The notes: generated from the letters alone by a model not told the origin. Numbered from the stretch's first letter, positions 868 through 30,300 are shown. The stretch is DNA of 64,000 nucleotides from Phoronis australis (GCA_002633005.1 NMRA01000111.1:800656-864655), one strand, 5' to 3'. A program made the numbers and translations.

Positions 868-1389
868 AGGGTAGCTTGCATTGTATAGTGAGCATGCCGG
901 ATTGCGGAAAATATACAGCTGACGTGCTTATGCCGTGTTCGATTTTGCAGTCAACAATATCTGATTCAGTAAGAAATTAAAAGACATTTGATCACAAAGT
1001 AAACTTTTGTTAGACAAATGCAATCGTGAAAGTGTCGAATTGCGGCTATTTTTGTCTCTTGTGAATTAATAGACTGGTAAGGCACAATATCACGACTTCA
1101 ACGGAGTTGATAGTAACATCACTCAGCGGAACTCATTAAAGAAGGAATTGGAGCATTCTTCCTGCTAGGGATACTTTTACGATTCGTTCAACCACGTGGC
1201 GTGTGGACCAAAGTTAAAACTGTTTGCGGAATAACCAAAATATTCTGATTTGTTGCTGTCTTAAAGGCTTGTAAATTTAACTCAGGTTCTTTGATGGTTT
1301 ATTTTTTAATCTTGGCGAGAGCTTAGGGGCCTGTGCCGTGGACGAGTTCAATCGCATAAAACATAACAAAGTTAACAAACAACCATCAC

Positions 1390-3441
1390 CATTGCAGCTG
1401 GACAGTTGTTTGTTCCAGCTTCCGTTTTCTTGGCAGACAATGGTGGAGCTGACCAATCCATCTGTAAACGAGTGTCCATCTGTGCACTTGAATGCAACAG
1501 AACTGCCGGGACTGACGGTAGCCGAGCTGGTGTCTTTGACCGAGTTCGCCACGGTCGGAGGTGTACATGTGATAGCTGTGGATAAAATATTATAACATAA
1601 TTTTAGTATTTCGCGGGAAGCATGATAAGAGCTTTGATAGCTTGTGTTATCTTCGACTGTTGCCCCATATACCCAAAAAACTTCGGTTCCAGGGAGTTTC
1701 AACAATTGGTCAGAATTATGTCAGTGCTGAGTTGCAAGTCATATTTTATTAGATATTATGATGAATATATGTGAATTCGGTACTGTTTGCTTTAAAGAAA
1801 ACCCAAAGAGTATCAATTACGTTGCTCTCAAGATGTATATTTTTGGCGGGCGCTATTCAGTTTTTATTAACTTCACCAAAGATGTCCGGTCAAATCCAGC
1901 TAACGCAATGTGCAAGGTCTGGACCAAAAACCTAATTTGCCAATTCGGCCAGTTGTCTGTCAGTTCGACCTAGGGTAGTTTGTCTGTTTGTAGGTTTTAT
2001 GAATGCTTTATTTCCTTTTCGGAGCTCGCCACGGTCGGTAGAGTACACGTTACAGCTGTTGGCAATTTACGACGGGATGTCAGTGTTTTTCGGATAACTA
2101 GATCAGCAGCTTACAAATGTTACAATTTATCAACGATTCAGAATTCAGCCCTAATTGACTTTCGATTGACAACTAGTTGCACTACTTGTGAGATTGCGAT
2201 TTTTTATCATCTTTGTAGTGAAGAGCAGCTAAAAGAATTCAACTTTCCCTGGAAAACAACACCTTAAAAAATAATCTTCATCTATTATCTGCATGCATTT
2301 GTATTTAAAAATAAATTACTTAGACTGATTTGTCTCTGGGCCGTGAATCTTATCATTGTGCTCCAAACTTGATTCGCCAAAGACAGATTGCTTGTGTTAC
2401 ACTTCGAGTAGACTTAGAATAACTTTTGTATTCAAATCATGCGGCGCGGTTGATTAAGTTTCCTGTTTGAGTTCAAAGATGGCATTACACTCTATCACAG
2501 TGCTAAACGAACCACTTTGCAGTATAGGTGGCGCTGTGTCAGAGGGTAAGATGACATGAGGTCGGAGATTACATCCTTCTAGTCTTAGGTTTTCTACTAA
2601 CACAGTTATGTTGTAGGACGATCTTGACTAACAGGAGTGAAACGTGACAAACCAGTAAAGCAAACCTACCGTTGCAGTTTGTCAGTTGTTTATTCCAGCT
2701 GCCGTCATTTCCACAAACAATGGTGTGGCTTGCAGAGCCGTCCGTGAATAAATATCCAGTATCGCACGTGAATATTACAGAAGTTGTAGGATTGACTGTC
2801 GATGAGCTGATGTCCTTTACGGAGTTCGCAACGGAAGGAACAGTGCACTCTGCATCTGCTGACAAATTAATAAATAATTTCAGCATTTTTTCGACATAAT
2901 TAAGCTGAGGGATGAATGTTACACGTTCATGTTCTTGTAGCAATTTTGATTTCAATTTGAAAGTGCTTACCTACAGATTTCGCAAATGATATGGATTCTT
3001 CCGTCAGTGAGGTGATTGGCATTTGACAGACTATGCGATGCCTACCATAAGTATATTCTTTCGTCGCCGTCGAGCAAAATTAAAAGATTATTTCACAATT
3101 TCTGAGATTTTGAAATACATGGGAACGCAGCTAGGAATACCTACCTGTTGCTGACACATCCATAACCCAGTTACGCCATGGTCCTCCACATATCTGACTG
3201 GAGTCTCCTGGACATGTTGAGCTACACTCGGCGGTCGGTGCTGTGCCGTATTTCCCGTAGGAATTACCGCAGTAACACTGATTGCTGGACTGTGCACCGG
3301 CATACCTATAACCCATATCAGCACAGGTCTGCTTACAATAGGTCTCACTGTTGGAAGAGCCGTCAAAGCCAGCACGGCCAGACTTATAATAGGGAAGGTC
3401 TCGACCATTTGATCGAGAATCCACGTAGCATCCTGGTAAAG
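1390..3441 (-). CDS. Partial multi-exon gene for an extracellular WSC-domain + Sushi/CCP-repeat protein
   Basis: Three phase-1/1 exons with AG/GT boundaries. 3145-3441 is WSC-like (GCYVD...CKQTCADMGYRYAGAQSSNQCYCGNSYGKYG...CSSTCPGDSSQICGGPWRN). 2670-2855 and 1390-1575 are 186-bp Sushi exons (C-x-x-P...F-x-C-x-x-G...C-x-x-x-G-S-W...C). The 5' exons were not identified. Confidence 0.85.
1997..2055 (-). pseudogene. Truncated Sushi exon copy (pseudo-exon or alternative terminal exon)
   Basis: Acceptor CAACAG, then (A)VTCTLPTVASSEKEIKHS* in phase 1. It is homologous to the start of the 1390-1575 exon (AITCTPPTVANSVKD) but stops early. Confidence 0.6.
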
Positions 3442-4651
3442 CTGCAACAGGAAAAAACATACTGTGGAGAACAACTTGCACTTAATTTTCAATACATCGG
3501 CCCATAGCCAAATCAAGGCACTGTTTTTCAGTGCCGTATAAACAATTCTTAGCCAGTAGTAGCATACATATGTTTTTGGCCCCGCGTGCCCTGCCTGTTG
3601 ATCCGCGCCCACAGCATTTTTAGAAGCATCAACACAAGTTTCTACGCCTCTCGAAGCACTGTTCTCAGGTAGTGCGAACCCTATTCGTGGGAAAGTTTCA
3701 GTGAGTTGGTCAAGAGTATGGGGCATTAATGATTAAGCGATATTCAAAGAATTGTAGGAGTCGTATTGCTCCTGGAAGCATAAGCTTGCTCACAAAAAAG
3801 CGCGGACGCCTAAAAGTGCAGAGACTCGCCAAGAAAGCGCTAGGAATTCCTAATTAACTTTTTAAACGATTGTTGAACTTTCAGTTCTGTTTTTGCTAAA
3901 ATACAGGACTGCAAAGTCTGCAAATTTTGAATTTACGCAAAATGTAGGCTATATATATTTGACAAAGGTAGCATTCTTGACTGGCACAAGCACAGGCCAC
4001 TGATTAGCGATGCGTGAATTCTTGAAATCATCCAGTTCGATAGACAACCAACGTTGCTTAGTGGACACATTGTTGTCTCATCGTTTAGAAGCTGTCTGAA
4101 TTGCTTTCCTTCAAAGTGAAAATATCACCCATGTTTGCATTGCTGTGCCTCGTTTTATGAGCATTTGATAAGGGGCTCTTCGACTTATGCTTTGGGTCCC
4201 GCAGGTGCTTTTTATAATTTCCTGCGCCGCGATGAGACTGAGGTCCGTGAAGTCCGCTCAAATTAAAAAAGTTCCACGTAATATCAAAGATGTTATAGAG
4301 TATCTTTGGTAATATCTGAACTAATGCTCCAACGAATCATGCCACCTCTACTTGTGATGAAATGCTTCACTGAGTATCTTACTGGCTTTAGCAGGAGGGC
4401 ACACACGAGTAAAGAAAATACAAATGTGAACATTACACACCATAGAATACATGAACATAACAAAAACAACAGAAAAATGAAAATAAAATAAAATAAAATA
4501 AAGTGAACTTCTATAGTGTTGAGAAAAACATGAAAATGTTATCATGACATGTTACAGGCCTAAATAAATAATCATAAGGAGAATCATGATAAAGACAAAA
4601 CTAAGTAAAGAATGAACCTTAACCACAGATATTGTAAATAACAGATTACAT

Positions 4652-18300: not shown

Positions 18301-21300
18301 CGTCTCTGAAGACGACACTTGCGATATTAGCTATGGCTGGTTAAGGAAAAGATTACAAGAATGTTTTTTGACAGACAACAGGTTTGTAGCATGCAACATC
18401 AAGCCTAGAAGTACTGTAAAGCCCAGATTTACAATCAAGTATCTACTGCATCTTATCAAGGATGTGGTTTGTCAACATGGTCATTTCAACACCTGCAGAA
18501 TAAAATTGTGCAAATGTTGATAAGAAAAATGATAGATTTAAATTGGCTTGAAATGTTTTGGCATTTATTAAAACATCATCCTCAGAAGCAAAAACAATGA
18601 CCCCCTTGCTAGACCCAACAACATGTAATGATACACAGACAGTCAGTTACAGGAGAGTAACAATAGACTAGACCAGACTAGCAATGACAACCTGTGGTGT
18701 CCCAGATGCCTATTGAGACAGGTCTTACACCAACTGTTGTGCAGAGCTTTGTATTCACCATTTGAAAACCTGGACCAGGGAACATCTAAATTCTGATAGA
18801 AGTTCACATATTAATATTCATCTGCAGAGCTCCAATCATTGTTATGAGCAATGCTCTTTCAATGTCTTTGCTATAATAGACCAAGCAGAAACAACATGGG
18901 AGCTGAAAATTTGTGAGGCTCTACATAACAATTGATGCAAGACCACTCTCACTTAGGCAACTGGGACACCACAGGTTGTCATTGTTAGTCTAGTCTATTG
19001 TTACTTCCCTGTTAGTGACTGTGTCTGTGTATCATTACATGTTGTTGGGCCTAGCAAGGTGGTCACTGTTTTTACTTCTGAGGATGGAGTTTTAATAAAT
19101 GCTGAAACTTGTCAAGCCGATTTAAATCCATCATTGTTTTTATCAAAATATGTTGCTACTCGCTATCATGGAGAAAACTGTGGATAACATTGAAACCATA
19201 CTACATTACAATGAATGTTGACTGAATTGACAATAACACGTTACAAAATCAATGAACATTGTTCCAATCATCACAGACTTCCATTGGCTGAATAATAATT
19301 ACACAAATCTATAGTCAACATCAGCAGCATTTATCAGTGGACAAAAAGGCCAAGAACAACTTGTGTGCAACATAACACAATACACAACGAAGCGTGGCAA
19401 TATGAAGGATACGAATGAAACATTAGCATCATTGGTGAGGAACTGTTGAACAGCAACAGGGCACTCACTCAGCCACACACAGATCATCATAAGTAGACCT
19501 ACACGAGTCTGCAGTTTGGTGCTCTGCAAATGGTGGATAGAAATGAAAATTTAAAAGTTAACAAGTCACAACTTCAAACAATTATCACCCAGAGAATCAT
19601 AACAAAGGTGAATTTTTACTTTTCAAACTACAGATGACCCCATCCAGAGCATAGTACACAGTTTTTTTACTTAACTTACAAAAGAGATCAACAATTTTAT
19701 TGGCTTTGTCACTTAGCACCCGCACCTGGCATATGTCCTATTAGTGAGATCCTACTGAAAACTACCATGCTGTGAATGTCCTATGATTCGTACATAACGT
19801 GGGAACTTGTCACATCAGACATATAGGAGAGAAACAAACTCTGCATCCAATCTTTGTCACTGGGAGATCAAAAAATGTCCACCCGATGACATTCAAGAAG
19901 AGACTGAAACCGGTACTTTTGACAGTAAGGTGCTGATGAACATAAACAAATCTTCAATGAAATAGTGCAAGGGACCCCAGTTAACAAAACCAAATTTAAG
20001 TGCAAAGTAATATATGCGGTATAGAATACTTCAACGAGATGGTTGGCCATCCTTGAGTGATCACATTTGTGTCCCTTACTCTCTAACACACATGACATGC
20101 TTCAAGCCATACCCAAGACAGGGGACATATTCTTGATACAAGCATAAGATCGCTAAAATATCAGACACTTAATATTCCAGACCATTTTCAATGGCAACAC
20201 ATAACTACAGGTGGCTTTTTACTACTTATTATAATTATATCAGGAGTTAGTTTTGTTTTATGCTGGTAATAGTGACTTTTATTCATTTCTATCTCAAACA
20301 GTATGTTAGTTCATAATTTATCCTCCATCTCAGACAGTATTATAGAACATATTTCATTCTCTACCTGAGACAGTATGTTAGTACACAATTTATCCCTTAT
20401 CTCAGACAGTATTATAGAACATATTTCATTCTCTACCTGAGACAGTATGTTAGTACACAATTTATCCCTTATCTCAGACAGTATTATAGAACACATTTCA
20501 TTCTCTACCTGAGACAGTATGTTAGTACACAATTTATCCCTTATCTCAGACAGTATTATAGAACATATTTCATTCTCTACCTGAGACAGTAAGTTAGTAC
20601 ACAATTTATCCCTTATCTCAGACAGTATTATAGAACATATTTCATTCTCTACCTGAGACAGTATGTTAGTACACAATTTATCCCTTATCTCAGACAGTAT
20701 TATAGAACATATTTCATTCTCTACCTGAGACAGTATGTTAGTACACAATTTATCCCTTATCTCAGACAGTATTATAGAACATATTTCATTCTCTACCTGA
20801 GACAGTATGTTAGTACACAATTTATCCCTTATCTCAGACAGTATTATAGAACATATTTCATTCTCTACCTGAGACAGTATGTTAGTACACAATTTATCCC
20901 TTATCTCAGACAGTATTATAGAACATATTTCATTCTCTACCTGAGACAGTATGTTAGTACACAATTTATCCCTTATCTCAGACAGTATTATAGAACATAT
21001 TTCATTCTCTACCTGAGACAGTATGTTAGTACACAATTTATCCCTTATCTCAGACAGTATTATAGAACATATTTCATTCTCTACCTGAGACAGTATGTTA
21101 GTACACAATTTATCCCTTATCTCAGACAGTATTATAGAACATATTTCATTCTCTACCTGAGACAGTATGTTAGTACACAATTTATCCCTTATCTCAGACA
21201 GTATTATAGAACATATTTCATTCTCTACCTGAGACAGTATGTTAGTACACAATTTATCCCTTATCTCAGACAGTATTATAGAACATATTTCATTCTCTAC

Positions 21301-24300
21301 CTGAGACAGTATGTTAGTACACAATTTATCCCTTATCTCAGACAGTATTATAGAACATATTTCATTCTCTACCTGAGACAGTATGTTAGTACACAATTTA
21401 TCCCTTATCTCAGACAGTATTATAGAACATATTTCATTCTCTACCTGAGACAGTATGTTANTAACCACTAAGGCAAGTTACTGAAACAAAATACCACAAC
21501 CACCCCCACCTACTAATCTGTAAAACGTACCATCAGCAGAAGATGGCAACAACGTCTGCACAATCTGTGACTGTCCCACCTCGTTCTTGTACAGGAATGA
21601 CTGGAAACAGTATAGCACGGCACAGCGCAGCACGAATGGCTGCTTCTCATTCACCATGGACATGAGCAGAACAACGATGGCCGGTCTGGGAGGGTTAGAG
21701 GGAGCCATGACTGAGGCAAAGTGTTCCTGGTTGGCATGATTACCGCGGATGACCTCTGACACCGTGTTTATGGTCTGGAAGATAAGTGAATACTTGGATG
21801 TATTTAGTGCTTGCCATGACAATCAAAAGACAGAAATCAAACTAAAAAAGCCGAGAAATCGGAGAGTGACATGTTACATTAAAGTACATGTTGTACACCT
21901 GGGTTAAAATTCATCGATTTTTTAAACCACATAACAAAACCAATGAATAGACATCATGCACTCAACACACCTTTATAAAGATAATTAATGCTATATAAAT
22001 GGTTCCGAATATTAAGTGACACAGAAAGTCACTACTACAAGAAAAAAATCATCAGAAACTAACAGAAAATCAACCTACTTCTGTAAGGACCTCTGCTGGC
22101 ACCCCACTTGCCATCAAAATGGAAGATAGCTGCTGTAAGAGTCCACACTGTGACATGGCCTTCTGACTCAGGGTGGCCTGCTGTTGAGGGTTGGTCGGTG
22201 ACACCAGGCTACGCACCAACTGGACAGAAATTAGAAATAAAATGATCACAACACATGCTGCTAGTGGTGGCACTTGTACAGTGTGCTTGAATTCATTATT
22301 GATGCAATAATAGTATTGTTTTAGCAGCCACACATCTCTTGATGGCTTTGGTCATACCAATCTGTCAGGAAATATGTAACACAATGGAAATGTATTAGCA
22401 ATTAATGCTTTATCTTTCCCATGGTATTTACTATCCTAGCCATGCATTAAATTTAACCAGCGAGGTAGAGTTTGGGTGACCTGTAGCCCATGCCTTGATG
22501 ACAAAAGCACACACTTTACAACAAACAACATGTTCTCAAAATATTTCAAATTTGTAGTTTTGTTCAGAGTTCCTTTTTAATTCTTCATGTTTGTCACAAT
22601 AGAGGTTTGCTTACAAGCCAACTGAAAATTGCACCCTGAATGCAAATCGATACAAAATTCCTTGAATTTCCTTATCTATTATATACATTCTCAAGTATTG
22701 CTAGGGCAACACAACTATACATCCAAACTAGCTTTTTAATCCAGATATTGTACTGAGGATATTAAGAGGGTATTTCTGAAACCATTCTACCTGTAACATA
22801 AGATGAATGTTGGATACTTTTTGCGCTGACCATCCTCCCTGAGGGTTGGTGTCTGCTTGGTGCAGGTCAAAGTATGGTGTCAGTCTCTTAATATAGCTGC
22901 CCTCTCTGAACAAGGTCTGGTTAGATGAGTTATTCTTGAGCAGGTTCAACAACAGCATGAGAGAGTCTTCCACTACAATACCTGTGAAAGACAGTTCACA
23001 TCTAGCTTTAAGAAACAGGGTTCAGGCCGAACACGCAAGGTCAAACCCGGTCAGATTCTTTCGTTTTCAACCACTCTGATTACGACATGGAGATCAGGAG
23101 AGAGAATTGATGCCCAGTAAAACAATGTGAGCATACACTTACAGAATCCTGGAGTGGACAGAAAGTGAGTATTAGGTCACAAGTCTATTTCTAACTCAGT
23201 ACACGACGTTTTATGCACTTAACAAAGCTCCAAGAATGAGCGGACAGAAAGTGAGTATTAGGTCATAAGTCTATTTCTAACTCAGTACATGACGTTTTAT
23301 GCGCTTAACAAAGCTCCAAGAATGAGAGCCACTACATAGCAATGTTATGTGTTTTCAGAAGTGTTACATACGTCAAAAAAGTCAAACTTTTTAATACATC
23401 TTCATCATTACACAACACTTAAACACAATCAAACTGAAAGCAAAAAGCTACCAAACAAGTGATTCTGATTACGAGTGACCAGTAAACCCACCGTACCTCC
23501 ATCACTGTTTCCCTCCTCTGTCACAATGTCCAACAGTCTCTCATAAGCATTCTCAAAGGCGACAATCTTCTGGATGTTAGCATTGCCTTTGGTTAGCTGG
23601 ATAAGCAGAAGTAAGGCCTGCGGACAAAAGAACACTTTGCAAAATTCGTCCTTTTGTGTGTTTTGCTTTCAGGAATTTTAAAAGCATGTCTCTGCCAGTG
23701 GACCTGCATGACAGTGTACAGATGATCTATGACGATGCAAGTCACTGAGGTTAACATAATGCATTAAGCTGATGAAGAATGAATCGGCATGAAATCGCTC
23801 AGATAAACAGCCATGATTACAATATCACACGTAAAATTTCAGCCAAATGCTTCCTCACCCAAAAGTATGATGCTTTAATGCAGCCATTCCACAACAACAA
23901 AGTCAGTATCATGGAAAGTTACCAGATAGGATAACTTTCTTGCCACTAGTGCTTTGAGTGAGATAAAAAGTTCTTATTGATCACGTTTTTGCAACAACAG
24001 CCCCATATGATTGCGACGAGTGCAAAGTTTGGAGTTTATGCATGTCCATTAGCACGCAAACTTGGTGACGTTCATTCTGATGCCTTCAGCTCTTGTAACT
24101 AGAAGAACAAGCCTTTATGCACCTGGGGCGCATTTCTTCACTTTTTGTCGATGCCAGAAGCCACATTTTACACTTAATGTTCGCAACATGTTCCTATCTG
24201 GATCATGGGCACATGCTTTTCTCAGTCAAATGAGTGTGCATACACAATTTCTTTCAAATACTGATTTATCTATCCATTGGTTGACACAGCAATGCAGCAA

Positions 24301-27300: not shown

Positions 27301-30300
27301 ATATATGACTGTCTTATAGCTTTTAATTTTTTATCTAAATGGACCCATTTCTGGGGTCAACAAAAAATTAACTCGATTTTCATGAGTGTCCCTAATTATT
27401 GTGACATAAATACATTAATTATGGGTATTTCACTATATTATCAAATTTGTGCAATCACATGAAGCCCAAACTTTATAAACAAGAGTAAAGCGGAGCGTTG
27501 AAATACGCCCACGAATGCATCGCAAACGGTATGCTTTTAGGGTTGTTTATTTGTGTCATAAAAATGGTCACTAGATGGTGCAAAAAACGTACAATCAATC
27601 CAAAAATGAGAACATGTCATAGCATCTTTAATAGAAAGCTGTTCACCAAATTTCATAGAAATCTGTCATGGAACTATCACAGAAACAAAGGAAAACAGAA
27701 TAAAATAAAATTGCCACCAGGGGGCACAGTGTTCATGGGATCTGCCTGAAAGTCGTTATTGTTGTTGTTAGCTTCATGTAAATACACATACTAAATTTAA
27801 TAAAGATCCAGCAGTGGGTTTAAGAGATACAACTATGGGTGCAAAACAAAACAAAACTACCATTGGAGAAGCCACAGTAGTCAAAGTCGTCATCGTCAAT
27901 CATCCTCTTCACAAAGAGAACACATACGCTAATTTTCAAAACCATCCTTAGAATGATTTTGGTTGATGGAGGGGTGGATGCCAAAAATCAGACTCGAAAA
28001 CAGCCAAAAGGCCACTAGGCAGCACAAAATACTTCGATTCCATCCAGAAACAGGAGGATAGCGTCATCTTACTAATGGACGCCTGCGTTCAAAATTTCAT
28101 GAAAATCCATTAAACCCTTAAAGATACAGAGGTAAATGTAAAATCTAAAATTGCCACCAGGGGGCACACCAGTACTCAGATGATCTGTCCGAAAGTCATC
28201 GTTGTTCTTTGTCAACATCATATAAATATACTTGTTAACTTTAGTTAAGATCCTGCAAGCAAACGATTTAAGAGATAAAGCCATGGGCTCAAAAAACTAA
28301 ATTGCCACTAGGAAGCGCCACAGTAGCTGAAGTCATCGAAAAATCATCGTCAGCCATCCACTTCAGAGTAAAAACATACATGCCAATTTTCACAATTATC
28401 CTGAAAGCAGTTTGGTTGATAGAGGGTTGGACGCCCAAAAACAGACTCGAAAGCGGTAAAAATGGCCACTGGGTGGCGCAAACTAAGTCAAATCCATCTG
28501 AAAACAAAGCCTGTATCTCAAATGTTTTGAAAAAATGTTAAGGACATTTGAAGATACAGAGGTTAATGTAAAAAAATAGAATTACCACCAGGGGGCACAA
28601 AAGTAGTCAAATCCGTCCGAACATCGTCGTCGTCCTTTGTCAACATCATATAAATACACTAACTAAATTTAGTAAAGATCCTGCAAATGGCTTAGGAGAT
28701 ACAGCCATGGTGCAAACAAAAACAAAACTGCCACTACGAGGCGCCACAGTTGTTGAGATTGTCGGAAAATCGTCGTCAGTCGTCCTCTTCATAGTAAGAA
28801 CATACAATCCAATTTTCACAATCATCCTTAAAGCTGTTTAGTTGATAGAGAGGTGGGTGCCAAAACAGACTCGAAAACAGTAGAAATGGCCACTAGGTGG
28901 AGCAAACTACATCAAATCCATCTGAAAACGGGAGGATAGCGTCATCTTCGTAATAGATGCCTGTATGCCAAATTTTATGAAAATATGGATCTGTCCAAAA
29001 GTTCGCTCATGCTGTTCCATCCATGAAAGGAACACGTGTGCAAAATTTCATGAACATGCGTCAAATGGTTTTGGAGATAGAGCAGCGGACGCTGTACGGC
29101 GCCGCCCGGACGGATGGAGATGACGGCATAATGCATCCACAAAAGTGGGCGAATAAAAATAACATTTAACTTTGTCACATCATCCACCTCTTGCAGTCAA
29201 AGGTCAACTCCCGGATATCATGGTGTCGTACGTCCGTCATAAAAAAAGTGCTAAAAAGTTTTCAACCAAAATTAAAATAATTTCAGATTCTCTTTGAACT
29301 TGTTATTCAATACTACTGACCAAAATTTTAGATCCCAGGGATTATTCGTGAAGTCGGAAATTGTGTGACAGACGTACAGCAATTTTGTACGTCCGTCACG
29401 TGTATCCGTCACACCCATGCAATTGCAACTTTTCAGCCAATAAAATAAACTTAGGTCTCACTTTTACTTTCTAAATTAGCAGAAGATAAAATGTATTTCA
29501 CACCTAAGAACCTTAAAATGATTAAATATTATTAAGGCAGCGTTAAAATCAAGTAAAGTAAAGTAGTTGCTACAGATTTTAACTTAGATGAACTGGACCT
29601 CTTCAATTTCAAAAGTATTTGTTGAAGTAGTTTACAGTGTCATCTAGTTATTCTTAGTAAAATTCAACTTGTTAAAATCAGACAGTTGGACCACATTGTA
29701 AAATCTAAATAAAAAAATGTTAATTTAATGAATTTATTGTTTATCTGTTGCTGCCCATGTTTGTAAAGAAAAACTTAGCTTTTGGAAAATTCAAGACACA
29801 AAACATTCATATCTAAACAAGAGACCTCAAGGAATACTTGCCAAGTTGCTATTGCACTGGAATCAAGTGAACGTGTCATTTCTACTCTGAACTACTATGT
29901 ATGCAATGTTTTGTGTTGAAAAAGCATATGCTGAATATTTTTAGTGGTAGCAACCTGTCATCTACTTTATTGAGCATTTTTGTCACACCTTCACTGACTG
30001 TAGCCACTCTCATTGTGTTTTTCAGTGTCTTGGCTGGCTTGTATGAAATGATTTCATAGCAAATGACTGCACTGTCTTATCTTACATATATTTTTGTCAA
30101 AACAAGAACTTTGAAACCGCAACCTTTTAAGAATGAGACTAATTTTTTTCTGATGGGCTTCGAGGAGATTAAATCAGCGTTTAGAAATGAAAGAGGAAAT
30201 TGTTGGAGACCACGGTAAAAAACAGAATGCAACTGGGAGAAGAATGAATATCTGCCGGATATTCCCTGAAACTCTAAAAAATGCCATCGTGGATCAAGAA

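What the first reader, a model, noticed from the sequence alone, without database searches (positions are those of the whole stretch)
20281..21468. Minisatellite built from a USO1 exon end plus its 5' splice site: 16 in-frame donor copies
Seen: the 72-bp unit reads on the USO1 strand as TGT ACT AAC ATA CTG TCT CAG|GTAGAG..., i.e. CTNILSQ followed by a GT donor. The whole array is stop-free (385-aa ORF of CTNILSQVENEICSIILSEIRDKL units). The next USO1 exon (19523) starts in phase 0 with STKLQTRVGLL. Known (from recall of human p115): the sequence reads ...LLQQCTNILSQ-GSKIQTRVGLL, so the unit is the real exon/intron junction. Inference: the junction was tandemly amplified. Because 72 is a multiple of 3 and the array has no stops, each downstream donor would insert a further 24-aa amphipathic unit into the armadillo head. 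A VNTR could therefore tune splicing and protein length. The unit is a dimer of 36-bp subunits, and only one keeps the GT.
Basis: partly seen in the sequence, partly recalled or inferred. Interest (0 to 1): 0.85.

Follow-up and report, generated by a model that had tools for sequence, protein, structure and literature searches.

The report
Assembly-inflated repeat, one spare splice donor
The 16 repeated splice signals in this animal's USO1 gene are most likely a genome-assembly error at a gap: read depth points to about two copies per chromosome, and all the spliced RNA reads seen use only the first, genuine signal, as in similar repeats known from human genes.

Summary
The window does hold 16.4 copies of a 72-bp unit, each carrying the USO1 exon end CTNILSQ plus CAG|GTAGAG, stop-free in the exon frame. 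But the array abuts a single N that hides at least 450, probably at least 805, bases including 62 codons. In three DNA runs of one sample that carries the window's haplotype, the unit core has 1.4, 2.0 and 2.9 times the depth of the real exon's contig, against about 15 expected for 16 copies. So the real locus likely has about two donors per chromosome; some 14 units were probably looped in by gap filling. In RNA, 11 of 11 junction reads go from the real exon through 22 shared bases straight to the acceptor at 19523, and none lies on unit-internal sequence. That bounds downstream-donor use below about 24%, in other individuals whose repeat is unseen. What remains is a short junction-spanning duplication with a silent pseudo-donor, like human F7 intron 7 (PMC1557585). 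The scan noted a similar silent case in another genome (e1-7275060, unchecked). Ordinary.

The parts
21531..21774 (-). USO1/p115 exon upstream of the gap (81 codons + 1 base; phase-1 donor at 21530)
   Evidence: Pfam PF04869 1.1e-11; 2600 homologues; RNA reads leave it at 21531 for sequence absent from the window
21462..21530 (-). Start of the intron, cut off by the assembly gap
   Evidence: Contigs of X1, X2, X3 run 385-387 letters past 21462 into sequence unlike the window
21461..21461 (.). Single N standing for a gap of at least 450 (likely at least 805) bases that holds intron and 62 USO1 codons
   Evidence: 805 is inferred from contig overhangs 385 + 450 - 30
20459..21460 (-). About 14 near-identical 72-bp units, probably looped in by gap filling (which units are spurious cannot be told)
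   Evidence: Depth of core and return contigs against the exon contig; inference
20282..20458 (-). Supported part of the repeat: about five 36-bp subunits (A B A B' A'), exon end + true donor, one identical spare donor 72 bases on, and subunits whose donor reads GAG|AT
   Evidence: Contigs of entry (474), core (60), return (72) and exit (154); subunit comparison
20365..20386 (-). 22 bases shared by the real exon end and every unit; the only repeat bases covered by RNA reads
   Evidence: joint 20365 to 19523 in 5+4+2 reads, side 22; loose ends at 20386 are the real exon
19413..19523 (-). USO1 exon downstream (STKLQTRVGLL...), phase-0 acceptor
   Evidence: Pfam PF04869 4.7e-08; RNA joints and loose ends
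20311..21477 (-). 388-codon open frame through the array; not a coding sequence, a product of the repeated 72-mer
   Evidence: no RNA depth on unit-internal sequence; chance level

Best explanation
The USO1 exon end and its 5' splice site are duplicated in the following intron, likely only about twice per chromosome, and the 16-copy array is most likely a gap-filling artefact; the spliced reads seen use the first donor only. Steps: (shown) the real exon joins the unit in DNA; a unit-to-unit junction exists in DNA; the N hides unique sequence; RNA goes from the real exon to the acceptor at 19523. (Inferred) a 36-bp piece, 21 exon + 15 intron bases, was duplicated long ago, its copy lost the GT, the 72-bp dimer was then duplicated about once, leaving one identical spare donor; the assembler extended the downstream contig round the 72-bp cycle until the estimated gap of about 1 kb was filled; the spliceosome takes the most upstream of identical donors, as shown for human F7 intron 7, so the repeat is spliced out and the protein is normal.
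For: Depth, (entry/core/return contigs): X1 8.26/11.2/5.05, X2 51.7/105.5/59.3, X3 7.35/21.1/11.5; pooled core/entry 2.05, 1+return/entry 2.13, expected 14.6 if both chromosomes were as in the window and 7.8 if only one were. Core is close to entry + return in all three runs (differences -2.1, -5.5, +2.3), as a two-pass cycle predicts. X2's one-haplotype depth is about 25.5, so the entry contig (51.7) is an ordinary two-copy baseline. The sample carries the window haplotype: five X2 pieces between 19507 and 20356 have 0 other letters. No 12-mer of the unit occurs elsewhere in the window. Fourteen surplus units are 1008 bases, near the 805 or more that are missing. Units 1-12 are identical and begin at the N. 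RNA: 11 of 11 joints (X5 5, X6 4, X7 2) cover only 20365-20386 of the repeat; the loose ends listed for 9 of them read GNPPVTLLQQ (translated by hand), the conserved residues before CTNILSQ; RNA depth is 0 at 20265-20334 and 20405-20430 and at 21360-21529 (X5). 96 of 99 scored homologues have no insertion at this junction. Precedent: PMC1557585.
Against: The tool warns that contig depth is no copy number; the three DNA runs are one sample; two are shallow; no long read spans the locus. Single changes in units 13 and 14 could be real copies removed from the contigs; allowing for them gives about 5 donors over both chromosomes, so up to about 4 on one. The RNA runs are other samples and carry non-window alleles at 19425, 19431, 19455 in all reads, so they may lack the spare donor; then 11 of 11 says nothing about donor choice. 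Only 18-19% of each RNA run was read; 11 reads bound downstream use only below about 24%. The assembler and its gap-filling step are not known; the looping mechanism is from my own knowledge and three searches (listings only) showed no paper on it.
Confidence: 0.85

Rival explanations
1. The 16-copy allele is real (in this animal or in another from which the window was assembled) but silent: a long junction-spanning minisatellite with only the first donor used, as in LMNB2 or PDGF.
For: Units 13, 14 and 16 differ from the rest, so more than two distinguishable units are in the assembly; contig depth is a rough measure; the source of the assembly is not proven to be sample S1.
Against: Depth ratio 1.4-2.9 against 7.8 or more; S1 carries the window's haplotype letter for letter on the flank; array GC 32% is like the introns around it, so a fourfold or greater loss of depth has no evident cause; the array abuts the gap.
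Confidence: 0.07
2. The spare donor is used in a minority of transcripts or in some tissues and adds 24 residues (VENEICSIILSEIRDKLCTNILSQ) in frame to the p115 head.
For: The spare donor is identical to the real one from -22 to +38 and in frame; 2 of 99 homologues (two amphioxus models) have a 6-residue insertion at this junction; in human 6-16 and CBS two pseudo-sites are used (as cited in the introduction of PMC1557585); 11 reads are few.
Against: 0 of 11 junction reads and no read on unit-internal sequence in 3 runs; open frame is at chance level; all older 36-bp copies in the window have lost the GT; junction length is fixed in 96 of 99 homologues.
Confidence: 0.07
3. One reading: a long variable repeat that tunes p115 length through a ladder of in-frame donors.
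For: Sequence anatomy of the window alone; a 36-bp length difference in the repeat tail between two haplotypes.
Against: Needs both many real copies and their use; speak against each.
Confidence: 0.01

Closest known systems
Human F7 intron 7 37-bp VNTR (PMC1557585; abstract, outline and 12 passages of introduction, results and discussion seen)
   Same: First unit spans the exon-intron boundary; identical donors follow in the intron; only the most upstream donor is used.
   Different: F7 has 5-9 units with 4 exon bases each; here about 2 donor-bearing 72-bp units with 21-22 exon bases, built from 36-bp subunits, in frame, in an invertebrate; function of the spare donor untested here.
Human LMNB2 (100-bp x 10-15) and PDGF intron 4 (81-bp x 16-18) junction minisatellites (seen only as cited in the introduction of PMC1557585)
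   Same: Unit of similar size reiterates the exon/intron junction; only the authentic donor is used.
   Different: Those arrays are long and real; the long array here is probably an assembly product.
Human 6-16 intron 2 and CBS intron 13 minisatellites (seen only as cited in the introduction of PMC1557585; PMC306954 was not held)
   Same: Reiterated donors at an exon-intron boundary.
   Different: There two pseudo-sites are used besides the authentic one; here no use of a downstream donor was seen in 11 reads.
USO1/p115 head (Pfam PF04869, PF18770; PDB 3gq2, 2w3c)
   Same: Flanking exons match; both solved chains read CTNILSQ directly followed by GSKIQTRVGLL, as the RNA here does with STKLQ.
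   Different: No difference in the protein predicted; only the assembly lacks 62 codons.

Membership tests
Junction-spanning tandem repeat with 5' pseudo-sites (F7 intron 7 type) | First unit spans the authentic exon-intron boundary | tested here: met
   474-base contig in X1, X2, X3 joins the real exon to the unit; RNA loose ends read the same exon
Junction-spanning tandem repeat with 5' pseudo-sites (F7 intron 7 type) | Donor reiterated, identical in sequence, in the following intron | tested here: met
   72-base unit-to-unit contig present in all three DNA runs with 0 other letters: at least one spare donor
Junction-spanning tandem repeat with 5' pseudo-sites (F7 intron 7 type) | Head-to-tail array of minisatellite-sized units | tested here: met
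   36-bp subunits 21-32 of 36 alike; about five supported by contigs
Junction-spanning tandem repeat with 5' pseudo-sites (F7 intron 7 type) | Most upstream donor used, pseudo-sites silent or nearly so | tested here: inconclusive
   11 of 11 junction reads use the first donor, but the RNA animals carry other haplotypes whose spare donor was not seen
Junction-spanning tandem repeat with 5' pseudo-sites (F7 intron 7 type) | Pseudo-site works when the first donor is inactivated | not testable with these tools
   Needs a minigene
Junction-spanning tandem repeat with 5' pseudo-sites (F7 intron 7 type) | Length varies between alleles | tested here: inconclusive
   X1 and X3 contigs show one more 36-bp subunit in the tail than the window and X2; one sample only; number of 72-bp units per allele not resolved
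Long pseudo-donor minisatellite (10-25 copies; 6-16, CBS, LMNB2, PDGF) | Ten or more real donor-bearing units | tested here: not met
   Depth supports about 2 per chromosome, about 5 over both at most
Repeat that adds coding units through downstream donors (6-16/CBS-like use, in frame) | Transcripts spliced at downstream donors | tested here: not met
   0 of 11 junction reads; no RNA depth on unit-internal sequence; 95% upper bound about 24%
USO1/p115 | Uso1_p115_head and Arm_vescicular domains in the flanking exons | tested here: met
   (above curated cut-offs for 3 of 4 exons scanned)

The most novel reading that the evidence does not exclude
The real repeat varies in length between animals, and in some tissue or allele the identical in-frame spare donor is used in a minority of transcripts, adding one or more 24-residue units to the p115 armadillo head at a junction where two amphioxus models carry a short insertion: a young, repeat-born exon extension in a conserved tethering protein.
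Probability: 0.06. Interest if true: 0.55.

Novelty: new member of a known kind. Interest (0 to 1): 0.12.

Why it matters
As found, little: it is a caution that a single N in this assembly can hide about a kilobase and a coding exon, and that perfect tandem arrays beside such joins may be made by the assembler, so the USO1 gene model from this sequence lacks 62 codons. It adds a small invertebrate case consistent with first-donor choice among identical 5' splice sites; one search for such repeats with the word invertebrate returned only the F7 paper. If the spare donor were used, it would show a repeat adding in-frame protein units by splicing.

Tried and rejected
No whole genome is held for this window, so the missing exon could not be sought on other contigs. 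The run search listed no indexed RNA holder; this blank was not used, the raw-read runs were laid instead. Pfam matches of the array frame (MgtE_N, CTD9, Phage_Nu1 and five more) were rejected as scores summed over repeats. The idea that the N is one uncertain base was rejected: contigs run on for hundreds of unlike letters on both sides. Candidate acceptors at 21481 and 21468 just before the N were rejected: RNA leaves 21531 for VNTITAGQLL, which is not in the window (translated by hand). The open frame as a sign of selection was rejected. The last part of the script (summed scores to place the organism) failed and was not repeated; the animal is placed only loosely. 21 of 120 homologues were not scored for the junction (fragments or motif not matched). 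Searches for a paper on gap fillers looping through tandem repeats and on a USO1 splice variant at this junction gave nothing usable in the listings. PMC306954 was not held. No supplements were read.

Full report
What is in the window. Tandem Repeats Finder gives a 72-bp array of 16.4 copies at 20282-21460. On the minus strand it holds 16 copies of CAG|GTAGAG, the G of GT at 21444, 21372 ... 20364. One frame is open over 388 codons and repeats CTNILSQVENEICSIILSEIRDKL. Units 1-12 and 15 are identical apart from the cut first unit, units 13 and 14 have one change each, unit 16 has four, and a degenerate part-unit follows. The unit is a dimer of 36-bp halves, 25 of 36 alike; the B, B' and tail subunits read GAG|AT where A reads CAG|GT. 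The array starts at a single N (21461); four more single Ns lie 9-13 kb apart.

The gene. The flanking exons are USO1/p115: PF04869 at 21532-21774 and 19416-19523, PF18770 at 22076-22219; 2600 homologues, the best listed mostly molluscs, annelids and their kin at 89-95% over this exon. Full-length homologues map exon by exon along the minus strand from 31972 to 9957, with one hole: 62 codons between the exon ending at 21531 and CTNILSQ are absent (3 homologues counted). In both solved p115 chains CTNILSQ is followed directly by GSKIQTRVGLL, and 96 of 99 scored homologues have the same length across this junction; two amphioxus models have 6 more residues, one termite model 1 more; 21 of 120 could not be scored.

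Is the open frame special? No. With the 21 exon bases and GT fixed, 14% of 20000 shuffles of the other 49 bases stay open; 472 of 1522 51-base windows of ordinary USO1 introns are open; one plus-strand frame of the unit is open too. Any open 72-mer repeated gives a long frame.

The N is a real gap. Four DNA runs of one sample and three raw RNA runs of other samples were listed. In X1, X2 and X3 a contig runs 385-387 letters past 21462 into sequence unlike the window, and a 474-base contig lies on the unit for 30 letters and runs 444 letters on into the missing exon. At least 450 bases are therefore missing; if the two contigs share at most 30 letters, as contigs of one 31-mer graph do (inferred), at least 805. 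The 474-base contig also shows that the real exon is contiguous with a unit.

How many units are real? The repeat falls into an entry contig (real exon to unit), a 60-base core shared by every pass and a 72-base return (unit to unit). Depths: X1 8.26, 11.2, 5.05; X2 51.7, 105.5, 59.3; X3 7.35, 21.1, 11.5. Core/entry is 1.36, 2.04, 2.87, pooled 2.05; 1+return/entry is 1.61, 2.15, 2.56, pooled 2.13. The window's own array predicts 14.6 if on both chromosomes and 7.8 if on one. X2's one-haplotype depth is about 25.5 (8 bubble arms read), so entry is 2.0, core 4.1 and return 2.3 haplotype copies. If the single changes of units 13 and 14 were real and dropped from the contigs, the total rises to about 5 donors over both chromosomes. 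The sample carries the window's haplotype: five X2 pieces between 19507 and 20356 have no other letter (8 of 20 pieces shown). The tool warns that contig depth is no copy number, the runs are one sample and no piece spans the locus; I use only ratios of neighbouring contigs within a run, and the shortfall is fourfold to sevenfold. Fourteen surplus units make 1008 bases, close to what is missing. The simplest account, inferred and from my own knowledge of short-read gap filling, is that the downstream contig was extended round the 72-bp cycle to the estimated gap length; (listings only) showed no paper on this. X1 and X3 also show a tail with one more 36-bp subunit than the window and X2, which suggests that the two haplotypes differ in length; whether that subunit keeps a GT could not be read.

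Which donor is used? Of 24 RNA reads laid on 19390-20430 (X5 10, X6 12, X7 2), 11 join 20365 to 19523 with GT..AG ends (5, 4, 2). All have 22 letters on the repeat side, and the bin depths equal exactly 11 reads over 20365-20386. Loose ends, listed for the 9 reads of X5 and X6, read GNPPVTLLQQ by hand translation: the real exon, not the ...EIRDKL of a preceding unit; the 2 reads of X7 also stop at 20386 and run on unlike the stretch. RNA depth is 0 on unit-internal sequence (X5 also). Five X5 reads leave 21531 for VNTITAGQLL, so the mRNA holds the coding stretch that the assembly lost. Limits: 18-19% of each run was read; 0 of 11 gives a 95% bound of about 24%; all RNA reads carry the non-window allele at 19425, 19431 and 19455, and differ from the DNA contig at one silent site in the missing exon, so these animals' repeat is unseen and may lack the spare donor.

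Mechanism. Shown: exon-to-unit and unit-to-unit junctions in DNA; first-donor splicing in RNA; a gap at the N. Inferred: duplication of 36 bases (21 exon, 15 intron), loss of GT in the copy, one or a few duplications of the 72-bp dimer, first-donor preference, and inflation by the assembler. The donor form is unremarkable for this gene: another USO1 donor at 22790 reads CAG|GTAGAA.

Known cases. PMC1557585 (abstract, outline, 12 passages) describes the F7 intron 7 37-bp repeat whose first unit spans the junction and whose identical pseudo-sites stay silent, and cites LMNB2 and PDGF (only the authentic donor used) and 6-16 and CBS (two pseudo-sites also used); those four I saw only as cited there. 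This locus works like F7 as far as tested and meets the structural features of that kind, but not those of a long array or of a repeat that adds coding units. That vertebrate USO1 has a short alternative exon at this junction is recalled only; searches did not confirm it from the listings.

Verdict. Observation partly confirmed, interpretation partly supported. A short, probably silent junction duplication of a known kind, made striking by a likely assembly error. Interest 0.12.

Noticed in passing
window 8301, 30518, 42156, 51975 (single N) and 729-742 (14 N between G and C runs): Contig joins 9-13 kb apart; as 21461 shows, a single N here can hide hundreds of bases and an exon.
   Followed up: partly
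P0072, P0091 (Branchiostoma belcheri and B. lanceolatum p115 models): Six extra residues (GKYAPQ) at exactly the CTNILSQ junction, 2 of 99 scored homologues; possibly a tiny alternative exon or shifted splice site.
   Followed up: no
window 20282-20330, contigs of X1 and X3: A second haplotype appears to have one more 36-bp subunit in the repeat tail.
   Followed up: partly
window 19507-20065: The DNA sample is strongly heterozygous: alternative contigs differ at 3-6 letters per about 130 bases.
   Followed up: no
window about 18450-18650 (minus) and about 18960-19190 (plus): Similar translations on opposite strands suggest an inverted repeat pair inside a USO1 intron, perhaps ends of a small mobile element.
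   Followed up: no
window 28121-28929 and 23152-23326: Two-copy tandem duplications (426 bp, 81% alike; 86 bp, 95% alike) in USO1 introns.
   Followed up: no
window about 1280-3480, minus strand: Cysteine-patterned frames that look by eye like two sushi/CCP modules and a WSC module; names recalled, not scanned.
   Followed up: no
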